Of a DNA stretch of 64,000 nt, positions 15,001 to 21,000 are shown piece after piece. The stretch is from Ruditapes philippinarum. Its lineage: Eukaryota. Each line of letters starts with the position of its first letter. Positions within the stretch are counted from its first letter, which is position 1. A program made the position numbers. The stretch lies in contig NW_026862940.1 of the NCBI RefSeq assembly GCF_026571515.1, forward strand, positions 1-64,000. The letters run 5' to 3'.

Positions 15001-18000
15001 TATCATCAGCATTTTATGGTTTAATGATTTTTGCCAATTACCTCTCAATGCAACTGCTGATTGGCTATCATTAGGCGATATGTGATCACTGATCCCTCTT
15101 GTTATACTGTTATGTAAATATTAGGAATATACGTGTCATCTTCGTTTTTGTATATTTATTTATTCATAAAGTAACAATGACTTTTTGATCATAATTTAGC
15201 TAGAATTAATATGTTTAATTCAATAATATGATTATTCTTATCATACCCTTCAGGAGCCCAGTCTAGTCCGTACAGACAGTACACAAGTCCAGCTCAAAGA
15301 AAAAATCAAGCCAATTCTAGAACCAGTCAAGTTCAGCAGAAAACCAGTCTTGGAAACAAGCTTCTGAGTGAAGAGGAGGAATCGTTAGAGGAGAGCAAAA
15401 TTCTTGAAGACATTTTCTTTCTATGATTCTGTTACTATAAATAGTCTATACTTACTGTGATATTATTCTTTTTCTCACCTGAAATAGTCTGTATTGTTTT
15501 GTAATGGACTTGAATGTCAAACTTTAAATATATGTCATCAGGGCTAATGTGGGTTCTTCCAATCTTATTCCGTGGGTACGAACAAATTATAACTTTTATG
15601 GCGTCATGGTGCAAGAATGACCATTGCATTGCACTTGTTATCAATTTAATTATTATTTACTAATTTGAACATGTAAAAGTTTGTAACCCATGCTTGCCAA
15701 GTTCCGGAGTATCTTTATTATGATCTGTTGTTAATCACTTACAAGGCAGCCAGCAATAAAACCTTGTCATGTAGATGTTCTGCCAGGTTTGTGGGTTAGT
15801 CCAGCCTTATTACGGCTAGCATTAAGAAGGCCTAGTTTTGTATAATTCCTGTATACTATGTTAGTATGAATTTTTGTATTGGGGATTATTTGTATACTTT
15901 TTTTGAAAAAAAAAGGACCAAAAAACTTTCATACTTAAAATTTTTTATGTAATTTTATCCATTAAGACACAGGAGCTTGAAATTCTATCAATAATCGCTC
16001 AAAAGCTTGATTTAAAAAAAAATCCATACCTATATATAAAATTTTTATGTATAGGTATGGATTTTTTTTTTAAATCGGACTTTTGAGCGATTGTTGATAG
16101 AATTTCAAGCTCCTGTGATTAAGACTAGCTTCAGACAACCATGTCCGTAACATAAATGGCAGTAATTTGTTAACTTATATGAGGTCATCTTGTTTAAGCA
16201 AGTGTCTTAATATGCGACTTTATAATCCTTAAATGGACTTGTCCATCTTTATACAATAACTCTTTTATCATATTTTGGGATATTTTCAAAATATGTACTG
16301 GCTGTGTAGCTGACAGTTCTGACTATTGTCATACACGTTCGACCTGTATTTAAAATGTCATTAAAACATTAAAGCTGCATGCCTCCAGATTCATTCTAAC
16401 TTTCACAAAAATTCTGAAAATTTATTTTAAAGTAAAATATTGTAAAGGGGAACAAATAAAGTAATTTACACATTGCAAAGCACTCAAATTACTAAAAAGA
16501 TCAAAATATGAAAAATTACTCTTGTGTCACTAAGTAAACTTAGTCACACAGTAGAAATATAGTGACAAATAATGAAAATTCAGTTATTAATTGCACATAA
16601 ATTGAAAGACATTACTTGAATTGGGAATATTTTTTATTCCTTTGAAATTCTTAAAACCTTGGTACAATTTTCTCTCAAGATTTTCTTGAAATATTTTGGG
16701 TCATATGGAAGTATATATAACAATGTAAAATTAAATGTTCCAAATGTATGAGTAAGTTTCTTGTTTTTGATAGAAGAACACATATGTGCATCTTTCAACA
16801 CATATGTGTTAAGATTGAAACTTTTGGGAATTTTTTCTTTTACCTTCTGTGGTAAAAAAGTCAAAGTTGCTATTGAAACAATATGTTAAACATTAAATCT
16901 GCTGCTAACTTCTAAAGTTACTGTAAAACTCCCACCTCTTAGATGACTACAAATTCTCTGTTATAAAACATAAAGATAAATGGAAGAACAATATGGTAGA
17001 CACTAAAGTATCCCTTTAGCGAGGACATCCCCCATCTTTTCACTGTACAAATTACTTTTACGTTTTGTGCTATTATATTGCATTTACAATGTATTATGAA
17101 AATCATACTCTTCTGTAATAATCATTACTGTTTCTCACTTTTGTTAGTATACAATAATCTGTGTTATATATTCTAAAGTTTATTTTTTTTGCAATAAATA
17201 TGTGAATATTGTGCAGACTTTTGTTGTTTTTTTTACTCAGCCATGAGTTCTGCGTTAAAAGTGTATAAAGATATATCTCTGCTGCCGACAGTTTACACAT
17301 TTTTATTTCAATTTCTAAACAAACAAAAAAAAACAAATCCGAAATGCTGGTATGAAAGAAATTTGTTTCACAGGGAAAGGCTAGATTGTGTCTTTTCATT
17401 GGTTTTTAGCATCTACTGTAAATCCTTTTAGTGTGGTAAATGAGGTATGAAATAAGAACTGCCGGTAAGACAATGTGCTCAACTTCTCAGTGCTTGACAG
17501 TAAGGAAAGGGATGTAACTCTGTAAAAAGGGTAATTCAGAGTTATGGAACCTGTACCCTTTATGTAAGATTATCACAAAGAATAAATGTGTGAAGTTTCA
17601 ACCCATTCCTTTCAGCAGTTTTAGAGATACCTACTTGCACAATTAAACTTAACCAAAATGTTACCCCGACACCAAAGCCAGGGTGAGAAAAATAGCTCTC
17701 CCTATTCTTTTTATAGTCGGGCTAAAAATAGAAACAAAGATTGAACAGTCAAATCAAACATAATATTAATTGCTTCAATTTTTATTCATTTTATATAAAA
17801 ACAAAATAAAATATGTCACCAGACACTGTCACTTTAAAGTATTGTTTAAATATTGCACAAACATATTTCCTATTTTCGAGATATCGTCTACAGGATGCAT
17901 TTTAGTATATGTAATAAACTGTCGTCTGCTACGCTGAAGTTCAGCCAGTGTAAACGGTCGGCAGAGATTTAACTGAGGTTTTGGTTAAGGATCATAATTT

Positions 18001-21000
18001 AAAGTACATGACCACTTTAAAGCAGCATTGCCTCCCAGATTCATGCAAATTTTCATGAAAATTTTGAAAATGTATTTAAAAGTGAAATATTGTAAAGTGA
18101 ACAAAGATATGAATTTTACACAAATTAATCTCTTCTTACAATCTGTGTAACTTACCAAAAATATGCAAAAATAGCCCTTACTGCGTAAGTAACGCAGTAG
18201 AAATAATTTTATGGTGATAATTACTGAAAAAAAATCACACATAAAATGTTTATTATTACTTGAATGTGGAATCTTTTTACTTTTTCTTAAAATCTAAGTA
18301 CATTTTTCTCAAATTTAATTTTCTTCAAATGTATTGGCTTATCTGCAGCTTTAAAGTTGTCATGACAACAAAAACAATGGTTATGTAGCAATAGCAGTTT
18401 TTTTTTCTTTGAAAAGGTTGAGCTAAAAATAAGATTCCCTCAACAAAAAGAAAAGACATAAAAAAAAAATATTTATTAAAATACATGGATCCATGAAATT
18501 TATGTAACAAACTTAAAGAATATTAGCTGTCATCCATACATGTAATCTAATATTGCATGATATTCACTAAAAAAAAAAAAACCTATTTATATTTATTTTT
18601 TTGTCCAACTAGAATCGTTGAGACGGACCATATGCTCCACTATTCTTGACACACCATAACATAACATGGACCAGGAGTCGGGCAGCAACATCTTTTGTCC
18701 ATACTGCCAAGTTGTCTTAAAACCTGTACTGACAAGTGATTTTTTTTCTGAATTTAGACAAGTTAACAATTTTTCTTCCAAAAATGATTCAGATAAAAGG
18801 GACATACGGGTCAAAATCAAATTTTTGCCAGCCCTGCTGAACACGACCATGACATTGAAGGAACAATTCATAGAAAAATCATGGGTTTTGACCCATTATC
18901 AATTTTCCATGACCACTGTTAAGATTTGTGCCACAGTGTGCAGTCTGATCAGGATCTATGCTGTTCGCTTACAGACCCAATAACAAGTAAAGAAACTGAT
19001 AGCGAACAGCATGGATCCTTATCAGACTGCGCGGATGCGGAGGCTAGTCTGGATCCATGATGGTCGCAAACCCATTATATTGGTTTTGTCTTGACGCGGC
19101 TCATTTATTCTTCAGTGTCAATGACCAATGTAAGGTTATGTGTGATGTTTCCAATGAATACCATGAGCAGTTATGTCAACACAAATGACCAGTAGGTCTA
19201 GGATAACCCATTTATTCTTCAGAATGCCAAAGATAAACGGCAAATGTAGAACATTGTATATAAAGGATACTTTATCTGTAGAACTAGGTATATTGATTTT
19301 GTCTCCAGGTACAAATGTTTTTAATGCAGCTATTATCACTTGTACTATTTCTGTGGTAACTCTGTCTAACTCATACAGGAAGTTAGTCGATGACAGGGGT
19401 TGCTGTAAAAAAAGAGTTTTTAAAAATGACATTACATAACTAATCTGAAAACAAAAACTTGTTCATTTTAGTAGACCTGATTTTAACCTAAGCATTAAAT
19501 GCTGAAATTTAATCTTTTGGATATTACATTTGATCATAAAAAAATTAGTATACATTGTACGTATGTATGTAGTTCATTGTATTAATTTTCAACATTAGAC
19601 ATTCATTTTATACTGTTAATTTTCAAGTGTCAAATACAGCATCCTTTATTGTAAACGTCTGTTTGCCATGTTATTGTCATTTTTTTTAATATTTATCATA
19701 GTAAATTAAGAAGTTGAAGAAAGTGTAACATGTTTTGATAAACTGTGCAGGTTTATGAAACTTTTCTATCATAACTACATGTTGGTACTAACTTACTTAA
19801 AGTGAATAGGTCTATAATGGAAGGTCTGTAATACAATAAATGATAAATTTATGTTGATAGCTTGATAGTTCTAATGCATTTAGTATCATACATAACAAAC
19901 CATGCGAGAATTATATAGGAATGTTCCTAACAAGTACAAGATATGCAATCCAAAGTTGCACATACATTGCATTTATAAAGCCGATAATACAAGAAGGAAA
20001 TATCATTATTCATAAAAAAAATGATCAAAATAAATCACCAATCCACTTTAACAATAATCATACATGTATATGAGAATAAATTGTTTTATATTGACTTACG
20101 GGTAATGTTGAAGCATTTTGTGGCGGGGGTTTACGTTTCAGTAACGTATCTGATATTGCCTCTAATGGTAATGTATCGTCTTTCTGTACAATAAACAGTG
20201 GAGAGTCCCATCTGTTAGAGCCATTCGGTTCCTCAAATCTCATCACTAGCCCATCAAAACTGTCGACAGAAATTTAATAAGATAATGAATTGACATAACA
20301 AGGTAATCGAAAATCTGCACCTATCAAAATAAGCAATTAAATGTGCTGTCAAAATTTGCTTAGCATGTGAATTACAAAGGATGCTAGGATATTTACATAC
20401 ACTTATCCTCTTCATCTATGAATTTTGGCAGCGTGGCCGAGTGGTTAACGTGTCAGACTAATAATCTAAGGATTGCTAGCCGCATGGGTTCAAACCCCAT
20501 CCGTGGCAAGCCGTTGTTTCCTTGAGCATGAATCTTTAAATTCATTGATCAGTACTGGTTGGTTCCAGGAACAGATTTAAGAGTGTTTCAATATGCTTAT
20601 AGCTTCCAACACAATGGAACTAAAAAAATAAATTTGTATAAACTAATGAATTTCTAATATGGACTTGTACAACGTCCATTTTTGGACATGTTCATTATCA
20701 GTTTTTAGTATTAATTATTATATGAAAATTTATGCAGTTAGGCAGCCAATAAAATTAAGCCTGGTTAGACTTAATTGATAGATCCCTACTCTGACCTTTC
20801 ATTTGAATAACAATAAATTTACCAACAAACATTGGCACGTATTATTTTGTTACCAAATATGTTGTGGTGAAATTTTTACTGTAACCCATTAATTATTATT
20901 AGACAGGTTAGGGATCTATGTATAAGTTAATGTTAACATTTGGGTAAAATTTGGTTTGTTTCCCAGACAGTGCAGGTCACTTTCGTTGTGATTGATCATG

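What the first reader, a model, noticed from the sequence alone, without database searches (positions are those of the whole stretch)
17973..19270. KTI12 ends with a U12-type (minor spliceosome) intron
Seen: the last KTI12 intron begins GTATCCTTT and has TCCTTAAC ending 11 nt from its 3' junction, with no pyrimidine tract. Both are textbook U12 signals, and splicing there joins ..PSSTDK to LNLCRPF.. in frame. Known: minor introns are rare and can limit expression. As I recall, human KTI12 is a single-exon gene, so human-derived minor-intron catalogues would miss this link. Inference: an ancestral minor intron makes Elongator-dependent tRNA wobble modification dependent on the minor spliceosome in this lineage. 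The intron has tolerated at least two MITE insertions.
Basis: partly seen in the sequence, partly recalled or inferred. Interest (0 to 1): 0.7.

Follow-up and report, generated by a model that had tools for sequence, protein, structure and literature searches.

The report
Minor-spliceosome intron in clam KTI12
The last intron of the Manila clam KTI12 gene carries perfect signals for the rare "minor" splicing machinery, and the same intron seems to be shared with corals, amphioxus, fish and frogs, so it is real and old but an ordinary example of a known intron class.

Summary
The window encodes, letter for letter, the public 275-aa "protein KTI12 homolog [Ruditapes philippinarum]" on the minus strand in 8 exons. 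Its seventh and last intron is 19270..17973 (1298 nt, phase 0). It starts GTATCCTTT. It has TCCTTAAC with 11 nt between the motif and the exon (branch A 12 nt from the AG), and it joins ..PSSTDK to LNLCRPF... These match the published U12 consensus 9/9 and 8/8 at the optimal spacing. The joint chance is about 2e-8 per intron. The other six introns have U2-like donors.

Public proteins that read into the orthologous intron give independent support. Of 28 such proteins, 26 continue [I/V]-S-[F/L] after the exon. That fits ATATCCTT in corals, amphioxus, fishes and frogs, and GTATCCTTT in molluscs. Coral fragments also show S-L-T (TCCTTAAC) and a final Y/H/N codon (..AC).

The intron is therefore probably an ancient minor intron that switched from AT-AC to GT-AG in molluscs. 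Any regulatory role is unproven. No orthologous DNA, RNA-seq or PWM scorer was available. Four full-text searches found no paper that links KTI12 to U12 introns, but automated catalogues probably list it.

The parts
17829..26053 (-). KTI12 coding region, 8 exons: 26053..25903, 25627..25576, 25310..25258, 24914..24859, 21491..21412, 20259..20100, 19402..19271, 17972..17829 (includes the stop). Total 828 nt.
   Evidence: Exact mapping of public protein P0001. Exon 5 corrected by reading the output. Exon lengths sum to 828 nt. Pfam KTI12 PF08433 matched in each of the 6 exon ORFs tested.
19271..19402 (-). Exon 7 (44 codons, QPLSS..PSSTDK), upstream of the minor intron
   Evidence: Pfam PF08433 positions 182-237
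19262..19270 (-). U12-type 5' splice site GTATCCTTT (9/9 to RTATCCTTT)
   Evidence: consensus from PMC8199999
17973..19270 (-). Intron 7: 1298 nt, phase 0, GT-AG subtype, U12-type
17984..17991 (-). Branch-point sequence TCCTTAAC (8/8). 11 nt lie between the motif and the exon; the branch A at 17985 is 12 nt from the terminal G.
17973..17974 (-). 3' splice site AG, the first AG downstream of the branch site
17829..17972 (-). Exon 8 (last): LNLCRPF..NNTLK plus stop
   Evidence: Pfam PF08433 positions 227-271
18940..19067 (.). Hairpin-forming repeat inside the intron (35-nt arms, 89% complementary, plus a second arm pair). A related copy lies at 44915..45034.
18007..18364 (.). 358-bp element with 21-nt terminal inverted repeats (90% complementary). 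It ends 16 nt upstream of the branch-point motif. A 67% relative without those repeats lies at 16348..16707.

Best explanation
The last intron of the Manila clam KTI12 gene is a true U12-type (minor-class) intron of the GT-AG subtype.

Shown: it has the rigid donor GTATCCTTT and the branch-site box TCCTTAAC 12 nt from the AG. The splice it implies gives exactly the conserved KTI12 protein.

Inferred from established knowledge of minor splicing: U11 and then U6atac pair with the donor, U12 pairs with the branch box, and the first AG at the right distance is used. Mature KTI12 mRNA in this animal therefore needs the minor spliceosome. Transcripts that keep the intron would read 44 extra codons to a stop. 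They would lack the 47 conserved C-terminal residues.

The intron sits at the same phase-0 position as an intron in corals, amphioxus, ray-finned fishes and frogs. Read-through residues there fit an AT-AC minor intron. The most likely history is one minor intron at least as old as the cnidarian-bilaterian ancestor, which changed its end dinucleotides from AT-AC to GT-AG on the way to molluscs.

I think it most likely persists as a neutral relic with the usual slow splicing of its class, and not as a dedicated switch.
For: - Sequence read directly; exact exon/intron map.
- Donor 9/9 and branch box 8/8 to the consensus, with spacing at the optimum quoted in PMC8199999.
- Joint chance 2.4e-8.
- The other six introns of the gene have GTGAGT, GTATAA, GTTGGT or GTAAGT donors.
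- The public protein P0001 uses this junction, and 155 of 192 stored KTI12 proteins cross it with no gap.
- Read-through census. Of 28 proteins that leave the spliced sequence at this point with at least 3 residues, 18 continue I-S-F, 4 I-S-L and 4 V-S-F.
  - I-S-F: Branchiostoma floridae, Xenopus tropicalis, Pelobates cultripes, Amia calva, salmonids, characiforms, Paramormyrops and others, plus coral-like P0024.
  - I-S-L: Acropora-like P0029 and P0065, Polyodon, Acipenser.
  - V-S-F: Ruditapes-like P0057, bivalve-like P0058 and P0059, Patella-like P0073.
- After the third codon the read-throughs diverge completely, so only the first 9 nt are conserved.
- Coral acceptor sides: '..FSLTTFLY|VVLNR' in P0018, P0019 and P0021 and '..SSLTVFSY|VALNR' in P0024. 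S-L-T fits TCCTTAAC 13 nt from the exon and Y fits ..TAC. P0035 ends in H and P0029 in N, both compatible with ..AC.
- Same-species pair in Paramormyrops kingsleyae: isoform X2 is spliced ('ASEK VQTTRS'), and isoform X1 reads into the intron ('ASEK ISFWVCG..').
- Molluscs are reported as relatively rich in minor introns (passage of PMC10639083).
Against: - No RNA-seq, no PWM or intronIC score, and no DNA of any orthologous intron could be examined. The cross-species evidence is at amino-acid level and degenerate (S = TCN or AGY; I = ATH).
- V-S alone is not diagnostic. 4 of the 6 U2-type introns of this gene also begin with codons V-S (GTAAGT or GTGAGT), so in molluscs only the third codon (F) discriminates.
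- Two read-throughs do not fit (P0074 V-C-T, P0077 Y-L-I). Two fragments (P0071, P0076) have no intron here and break about 13 codons later.
- One I-S-L (P0051, Holothuria) is the real exon sequence, which shows that the pattern can arise without an intron.
- The proteins are related by descent, so counts overstate the number of independent cases.
- The intron is phase 0, the least common phase for minor introns (about 22% on average, PMC10639083).
- Pyrimidine content near the 3' end is not lower than in every U2 intron of the gene.
- No minor snRNA gene lies in the window (0 Rfam matches), so the machinery is assumed from the literature.
Confidence: 0.88

Rival explanations
1. Regulatory valve: the minor intron is kept because slow, U6atac-limited splicing tunes KTI12 output, and with it Elongator-dependent wobble-uridine modification, to stress or growth signals.
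For: Apparent retention of the intron and its 9-nt donor across phyla. A public fish isoform that reads into the intron (P0063). The 'molecular switch' idea for minor introns exists (PMC3728624; only its search listing and abstract start seen).
Against: Nothing in the sequence measures splicing rate. The pan-eukaryotic survey concludes that neutral processes explain much of minor-intron evolution and that minor introns are not more conserved than major ones (passages of PMC10639083). By recall, mammals do without any intron in this gene. P0071 and P0076 lack the intron, and P0074 has a non-U12-like donor.
Confidence: 0.12
2. Chance look-alike: a U2-type intron that happens to carry U12-like strings and is removed by the major spliceosome.
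For: GT-AG ends. TTAAC also fits the loose U2 branch consensus YTNAY (recalled). Pyrimidine fraction of 0.56 lies within the range of the other introns.
Against: Joint chance about 2e-8. The donor lacks G at -1 and +5. The branch site is only 12 nt from the AG. The donor codons are conserved in relatives while the rest of the intron is not.
Confidence: 0.03
3. Independent origin: the mollusc GT-AG minor intron and the AT-AC-like intron of corals and deuterostomes were gained separately at the same site.
For: Different terminal dinucleotides.
Against: Same codon boundary and phase in every lineage seen. Minor-intron gain is regarded as very rare, and AT-AC to GT-AG switching is a described route (recalled, not checked in a call).
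Confidence: 0.05
4. Wrong gene model: the true mRNA ends differently, for example with an alternative last exon or a shifted junction.
For: I saw no transcript data. The public model is an automatic prediction.
Against: Exon 8 matches Pfam KTI12 positions 227-271 and is 57-89% identical to the C-termini of the 55 other proteins listed. The gap-free junction is shared by 155 of 192 proteins, several of them on transcript-sized contigs of about 1 kb, such as P0003 and P0007.
Confidence: 0.02

Closest known systems
U12-type (minor-class) introns, GT-AG subtype
   Same: Donor RTATCCTTT, branch box TCCTTAAC, 10-20 nt (optimum 11-13) from branch site to 3' splice site, no tract between branch and AG, and a single minor intron among several major introns in one gene.
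   Different: Phase 0, the least common phase for this class. It is the last intron of the gene, so retention would not place a stop upstream of an exon junction (inference).
Orthologous KTI12 intron in corals, amphioxus, ray-finned fishes and frogs (inferred AT-AC minor intron)
   Same: Same codon boundary and phase. The first three read-through codons fit xTATCCTT. In corals there is a branch box at 13 nt.
   Different: Their first codon is I (AT..) and the last is Y, H or N (..AC). Molluscs have V (GT..), and in the clam the intron ends ..CAG. I saw no DNA of the orthologs. Coral introns are short enough to be read through whole (45 codons in P0024, 58 in P0029), whereas the clam intron is 1298 nt and holds repeats.
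Minor introns as U6atac-limited 'molecular switches' (PMC3728624; listing and abstract start only)
   Same: A single minor intron could in principle gate the output of the whole gene.
   Different: No expression or retention data exist here for KTI12, so this is a model and not a finding.

Membership tests
U12-type (minor) intron | 5' splice site /RTATCCTTT | tested here: met
   GTATCCTTT at 19270..19262, 9/9; consensus from PMC8199999
U12-type (minor) intron | Branch-point box TCCTTAAC | tested here: met
   TCCTTAAC at 17991..17984, 8/8
U12-type (minor) intron | Short branch-to-3'ss distance (10-20 nt, optimum 11-13) | tested here: met
   Branch A at 17985 to terminal G at 17973 is 12 nt. It is the first AG after the box.
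U12-type (minor) intron | No polypyrimidine tract | tested here: inconclusive
   CAAAACCTC lies between box and AG. Pyrimidine fraction at -30..-4 is 0.56, against 0.52-0.78 in the six U2 introns; the longest run is 5, against 4-14.
U12-type (minor) intron | Score above threshold with a trained classifier (intronIC or U12 PWMs) | not tested
   No such program or matrix was on hand. Only consensus matching and a composition-based chance estimate were done.
U12-type (minor) intron | Removal depends on U11, U12, U4atac and U6atac | not testable with these tools
   Needs experiment or RNA-seq. No snRNA gene in the window. Molluscs are reported to have many minor introns (PMC10639083).
U12-type (minor) intron | Conservation of position and type in orthologs | tested here: met
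   Protein-level only. 26 of 28 read-through proteins show [I/V]-S-[F/L] at the same boundary. Coral acceptor sides show S-L-T and a terminal Y, H or N.
KTI12 (Pfam PF08433) | Match to the family profile along the protein | tested here: met
   All six exon ORFs hit PF08433 at collinear profile positions 1-48, 65-86, 82-107, 128-189, 182-237 and 227-271. Five exceed the 22-bit cut-off and one scores 18.8 bits. The window encodes P0001, 'protein KTI12 homolog [Ruditapes philippinarum]', exactly.
MITE (the two intron inserts) | Terminal inverted repeats | tested here: met
   18007..18364 has 21-nt repeats, 90% complementary. 18940..19067 is a hairpin with 35-nt arms.
MITE (the two intron inserts) | Target-site duplication and many dispersed copies | tested here: inconclusive
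   Reading the flanks of 18007..18364 showed no duplication. Each element has one related copy in the 64 kb: 44915..45034, and 16348..16707, the latter without the terminal repeats. The rest of the genome was not available.

The most novel reading that the evidence does not exclude
The terminal KTI12 intron is a minor intron more than 600 million years old (the age is recalled, not computed). It has been kept from the cnidarian-bilaterian ancestor through corals, amphioxus, fishes, frogs and molluscs. It changed from AT-AC to GT-AG in molluscs and was lost only where the gene became intronless. It is kept because it gates the supply of the Elongator cofactor, and thereby wobble-uridine tRNA modification and codon-biased translation, on minor-spliceosome activity.
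Probability: 0.1. Interest if true: 0.65.

Novelty: new member of a known kind. Interest (0 to 1): 0.35.

Why it matters
This adds KTI12, the Elongator cofactor needed for wobble-uridine tRNA modification, to the genes whose expression needs the minor spliceosome in many animals. Four full-text searches found no paper that holds KTI12 together with such an intron term.

It gives a clear case of an AT-AC to GT-AG subtype change within one orthologous intron.

It also explains a recurring annotation error. At least 19 named public KTI12 protein records, among them Xenopus tropicalis, amphioxus, salmonid, Amia and sturgeon records, carry spurious 'ISF..' or 'ISL..' residues or truncations. The likely reason is that gene predictors avoided the AT-AC ends.

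In fish or frog the link is testable. Blocking minor splicing should cause kti12 intron retention and lower mcm5/ncm5 U34.

For a specialist, though, one more minor intron in a mollusc is expected. Hundreds exist per genome, and automated surveys of thousands of genomes have been run.

Tried and rejected
- Near-length search with the exon-7 ORF gave 1 hit among 3 candidates. That hit was useful (P0057), but the search had little reach.
- The profile search with alignment A1 widened its length range to 44-399 aa and was dominated by full-length proteins. Only the best 120 of 1079 hits were listed, so the census covers 192 stored proteins and not all hits.
- PDB search with the last exon: 0 matches at E up to 1.
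- Rfam scan of the window: 0 families.
- The listing of cluster members did not complete because the database was off, so no accessions or transcript-derived members of P0001's cluster were seen.
- My greedy exon mapper produced a false 4-nt exon inside the 37-nt tandem repeat. I corrected it by reading the output. The corrected exon lengths sum to 828 nt.
- The repeat finder rejected a minus-strand region. I repeated it on the plus strand.
- Literature: KTI12 with 'U12-type', 'U12', 'minor intron' or 'AT-AC' gave 0 papers each. At1g13870 (recalled locus of the plant homolog) with U12 gave 0. Elongator with 'minor spliceosome' gave 5 papers, none with a term in title or abstract; I saw the listing only.
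- Considered and rejected: that the I-S-F residues are real coding sequence. Same-species or sister-species spliced proteins lack them: Paramormyrops X2 against X1, Pygocentrus RefSeq against UniRef, Pelobates fuscus against P. cultripes, and Acropora millepora against P0029.
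Full report
**What the window is.** Local tblastn and an exact codon-by-codon mapping place all 275 residues on the minus strand of the window. The window holds no N. Six exon-level ORFs each hit Pfam KTI12 (PF08433) at collinear profile positions.

All searches that used window sequence were made exon by exon.

**Gene model.** The exons are 26053..25903, 25627..25576, 25310..25258, 24914..24859, 21491..21412, 20259..20100, 19402..19271 and 17972..17829 (stop included). 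They sum to 828 nt, which is 275 codons plus the stop. My greedy mapper first inserted a false 4-nt exon, because a 37-nt tandem repeat (21475..21672) duplicates the acceptor and first codons of exon 5. The output and the tblastn show the real acceptor, CACAG|ATACATTG at 21491.

Introns 1-6 start GTGAGT, GTATAA, GTTGGT, GTAAGT, GTAAGT and GTAAGT, and all end in AG.

**The observation.** Intron 7 is 19270..17973, which is 1298 nt and phase 0.
- It begins aaa|GTATCCTTTATA.
- It ends GATCCTTAACCAAAACCTCAG|tta.
- TCCTTAAC occupies 17991..17984.
- Eleven nucleotides separate the motif from the exon, so the likely branch adenosine (17985) is 12 nt from the terminal G.
- The AG used is the first AG after the box.

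A review gives the minor-intron signals as (A/G)UAUCCUUU and UCCUUAAC. It puts the branch-to-3'ss distance at 10-20 nt with an optimum of 11-13, and says there is no polypyrimidine tract (passages of PMC8199999). The clam intron matches 9/9 and 8/8 at the optimum distance.

Either motif alone occurs at chance frequency in 64 kb: 1 observed against 0.75 expected, and 3 against 2.2. Having both at the right places of a given GT-AG intron has a composition-based probability of 2.4e-8. None of the six other RTATCCTT sites in the window has a properly placed partner box.

The pyrimidine fraction at -30..-4 is 0.56, and introns 2 and 1 score 0.52 and 0.59. The 9 nt between box and AG (CAAAACCTC) are not a tract.

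**Is the junction real?** I had no RNA-seq. The public model P0001 uses exactly this junction (..PSSTDK|LNLCRPF..). Several of these lie on contigs of about 1 kb, which is transcript size (P0003, P0007). No alternative GT/AG pair could give the same residues.

**Conservation, by an indirect route.** No eukaryotic genome DNA was available. I therefore used the fact that protein databases hold two useful kinds of record:
- ORFs called on unspliced eukaryotic DNA;
- gene models that avoid non-GT-AG ends.

A phase-0 minor donor is read in frame: GTATCCTTT gives V-S-F and ATATCCTTT gives I-S-F. The proteins came from:
- the search with the last exon (sequences);
- the near-length search with the exon-7 ORF (which gave P0057);
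- an exhaustive HMMER search of 1.84 billion representatives with exon 7 alone (24 hits);
- a profile search with the fragments (best 120 of 1079 hits listed).

Over all 192 stored proteins, 28 leave the spliced sequence at the exon-7 end with at least three residues. They split as follows.
- **18 continue I-S-F.**
  - Named records: Branchiostoma floridae P0022, Xenopus tropicalis P0188, Pelobates cultripes P0127, Amia calva P0181, Salmo trutta P0100 and P0105, Oncorhynchus kisutch P0101, O. mykiss P0107, Pygocentrus nattereri P0137, Metynnis hypsauchen P0138, Sinocyclocheilus anshuiensis P0164, Paramormyrops kingsleyae P0063 and P0090, Centroberyx gerrardi P0163, Diretmus argenteus P0165 and Labrus bergylta P0191.
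  - Unnamed records: fish-like P0060 and coral-like P0024.
- **4 continue I-S-L:** Polyodon spathula P0093, Acipenser sinensis P0061, and Acropora-like P0029 and P0065.
- **4 continue V-S-F:** Ruditapes-like P0057, bivalve-like P0058 and P0059, and Patella-like P0073.
- **2 do not fit:** P0074 (V-C-T) and P0077 (Y-L-I).

Species names are those given. The '-like' labels rest on best BLASTP hits to named proteins.

Beyond the third codon the read-throughs share nothing, even between close relatives. For example, VSFIYNV in the window compares with VSFEILP in P0057, which is 92-95% identical in the exon. Only the 9-nt donor is held constant.

Same-species or sister-species pairs show that the extra residues are not coding sequence:
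- Paramormyrops isoform X2 'ASEK VQTTRS' against X1 'ASEK ISFWVCG..';
- Pygocentrus RefSeq 'ATER IELTRS' against UniRef 'ATER ISFCQLTRS';
- Acropora millepora 'AQEK VILIRT' against P0029.

**Acceptor side in corals.**
- P0018, P0019 and P0021 are 98-100% identical to Orbicella faveolata in the last exon. They read '..FSLTTFLY|VVLNRT'.
- P0024 reads '..SSLTVFSY|VALNR'.
- S-L-T is what TCCTTAAC gives in that frame. It lies 13 nt from the exon.
- The last codon, Y, fits ..TAC.
- P0035 (Porites-like) ends in H and P0029 in N. Both are compatible with ..AC.

P0024 and P0029 read through the whole intron (45 and 58 codons), so both ends belong to one intron.

Together this points to an AT-AC minor intron in cnidarians and deuterostomes and a GT-AG minor intron in molluscs, at one and the same codon boundary. 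The simplest history is a single ancient minor intron with a subtype switch towards molluscs. That such switches are a described route is my recollection and comes from no call.

**Evidence on the other side.**
- All cross-species evidence is at protein level and is degenerate.
- V-S is also what GTAAGT and GTGAGT encode (4 of the 6 U2 introns here). In molluscs only the F is informative.
- One I-S-L (Holothuria, P0051) is the real start of the last exon.
- P0071 and P0076 have no intron at this site and break about 13 codons later. P0074 has a non-U12-like donor.
- P0055, P0064 and P0069 are uninformative.
- The counted proteins are related by descent. Independent lineages number perhaps five or six: two or three coral genera, amphioxus, ray-finned fishes, frogs and molluscs.
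- The intron is phase 0, whereas minor introns average about 22% phase 0 (PMC10639083).
- No classifier score could be computed.

**How it most likely works.**

Shown: the signals, the frame and the conserved product.

Inferred from the established mechanism of minor splicing: U11 and U6atac recognise the donor, U12 recognises the branch box, and the AG 12 nt downstream is used. KTI12 mRNA maturation in the clam therefore depends on the minor spliceosome.

If the intron is retained, translation runs 44 codons into it and stops. The product would lack the 47 C-terminal residues, which are the best conserved block of that region (57-100% identity across the 56 proteins listed). Because this is the last intron, such a stop would not lie upstream of an exon junction (inference).

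Whether the intron limits expression is unknown. The pan-eukaryotic survey argues that neutral processes explain much of minor-intron evolution (PMC10639083). I give the neutral-relic reading more weight than the switch model.

**The repeats in the intron.** There are two inverted-repeat elements.
- A hairpin element at 18940..19067 has 35-nt arms that are 89% complementary. A 79-92% related copy lies at 44915..45034, and it too is a hairpin.
- A 358-bp element at 18007..18364 is bounded by 21-nt inverted repeats. The repeat arm matches twice in the window, against 0.01 expected. It ends 16 nt before the branch box.
- A 67% relative of that element at 16348..16707 lacks the repeats.

I saw no target-site duplication. 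'MITE-like' is fair, but 'MITE' is not shown. There is also a 14-nt direct repeat at 19102..19115 and 19209..19222.

**Comparison with what is known, and novelty.** This is a textbook minor intron of the GT-AG subtype. Full-text searches for KTI12 together with 'U12-type', 'U12', 'minor intron' or 'AT-AC' each returned 0 papers. Elongator with 'minor spliceosome' returned 5 incidental co-mentions, of which I saw only the listing.

Automated catalogues (IAOD, MIDB, U12DB, and the >3000-genome survey PMC10639083) very probably contain the fish, frog or mollusc intron. Their tables are in supplements or web databases that I could not read.

That human KTI12 has a single exon is recall, and I did not touch human sequence. 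If it is true, human-centred lists would indeed lack the gene.

I rate the finding as a new member of a known kind. It is real, well supported and apparently ancient. A useful side result is that it explains the 'ISF' or 'ISL' artefacts and truncations in at least 19 named public KTI12 records. It is not surprising to a specialist.

**What stayed unchecked.**
- RNA-seq support.
- PWM or intronIC scoring.
- DNA of the orthologous introns.
- Plants and fungi.
- Cluster membership and accessions of P0001 (one search did not complete).
- Supplementary tables of the catalogue papers.

Noticed in passing
window 21475-21672: A 37-nt tandem repeat (4.9 copies, 87% matches) overlaps the acceptor and the first codons of KTI12 exon 5. 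Several copies of 'TTTTTTCACAG|ATACATTGTAACACAG' therefore lie upstream of the real acceptor as decoy 3' splice sites. It fooled my exon mapper into a 4-nt micro-exon.
   Followed up: partly
window 22609-23749: A 145-nt satellite (7.9 copies, 92% matches) lies inside KTI12 intron 4.
   Followed up: no
proteins P0022, P0061, P0063, P0090, P0093, P0100, P0101, P0105, P0107, P0127, P0137, P0138, P0163-P0165, P0181, P0188, P0191: Many named public KTI12 records (amphioxus, Xenopus tropicalis, Pelobates, Amia, paddlefish, sturgeon, salmonids, characiforms and others) carry a few spurious residues starting ISF or ISL, or are truncated, at the exon 7/8 boundary. The likely cause is that gene predictors avoided an AT-AC intron.
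   Followed up: partly
P0063 and P0085 (Paramormyrops kingsleyae isoforms X1 and X2): A public fish record annotates an isoform that reads into this intron, next to the spliced isoform. This is possibly transcript evidence of minor-intron retention. I could not see the evidence behind the model.
   Followed up: no
P0071, P0076 (unnamed fragments): In one unidentified lineage the KTI12 ORF runs through the exon 7/8 point without an intron and breaks about 13 codons later (after ..AELGR). This suggests loss of this intron, or a different intron position, in that lineage.
   Followed up: no
window 26673-26903 (+): A reverse-transcriptase fragment (Pfam RVT_1, E 1e-8) lies about 600 bp upstream of the KTI12 start codon on the other strand. 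It is a decayed retroelement.
   Followed up: partly
window 58070-59287 (+): A 405-aa open frame holds two chitin-binding peritrophin-A (CBM_14) stretches (E 3e-10). It is probably a single large exon of a neighbouring gene.
   Followed up: partly
window 5519-6550 (-) and 4001-8000: There are long open frames in all three minus-strand frames, made of Y/I/H/S/T-rich repeats. GC skew is strong (0.28-0.33). This looks like a tandem repeat block and not a gene.
   Followed up: no
window 9168-10181 (+): A 337-aa open frame is rich in S, R, E, K and D, with a coiled-coil-like tail. It has no Pfam match.
   Followed up: no
window 19102-19115 and 19209-19222: An exact 14-nt direct repeat (CATTTATTCTTCAG on the plus strand), 107 nt apart, lies near the 5' end of the minor intron and just upstream of the hairpin element. 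It could be a local duplication or an insertion footprint.
   Followed up: no
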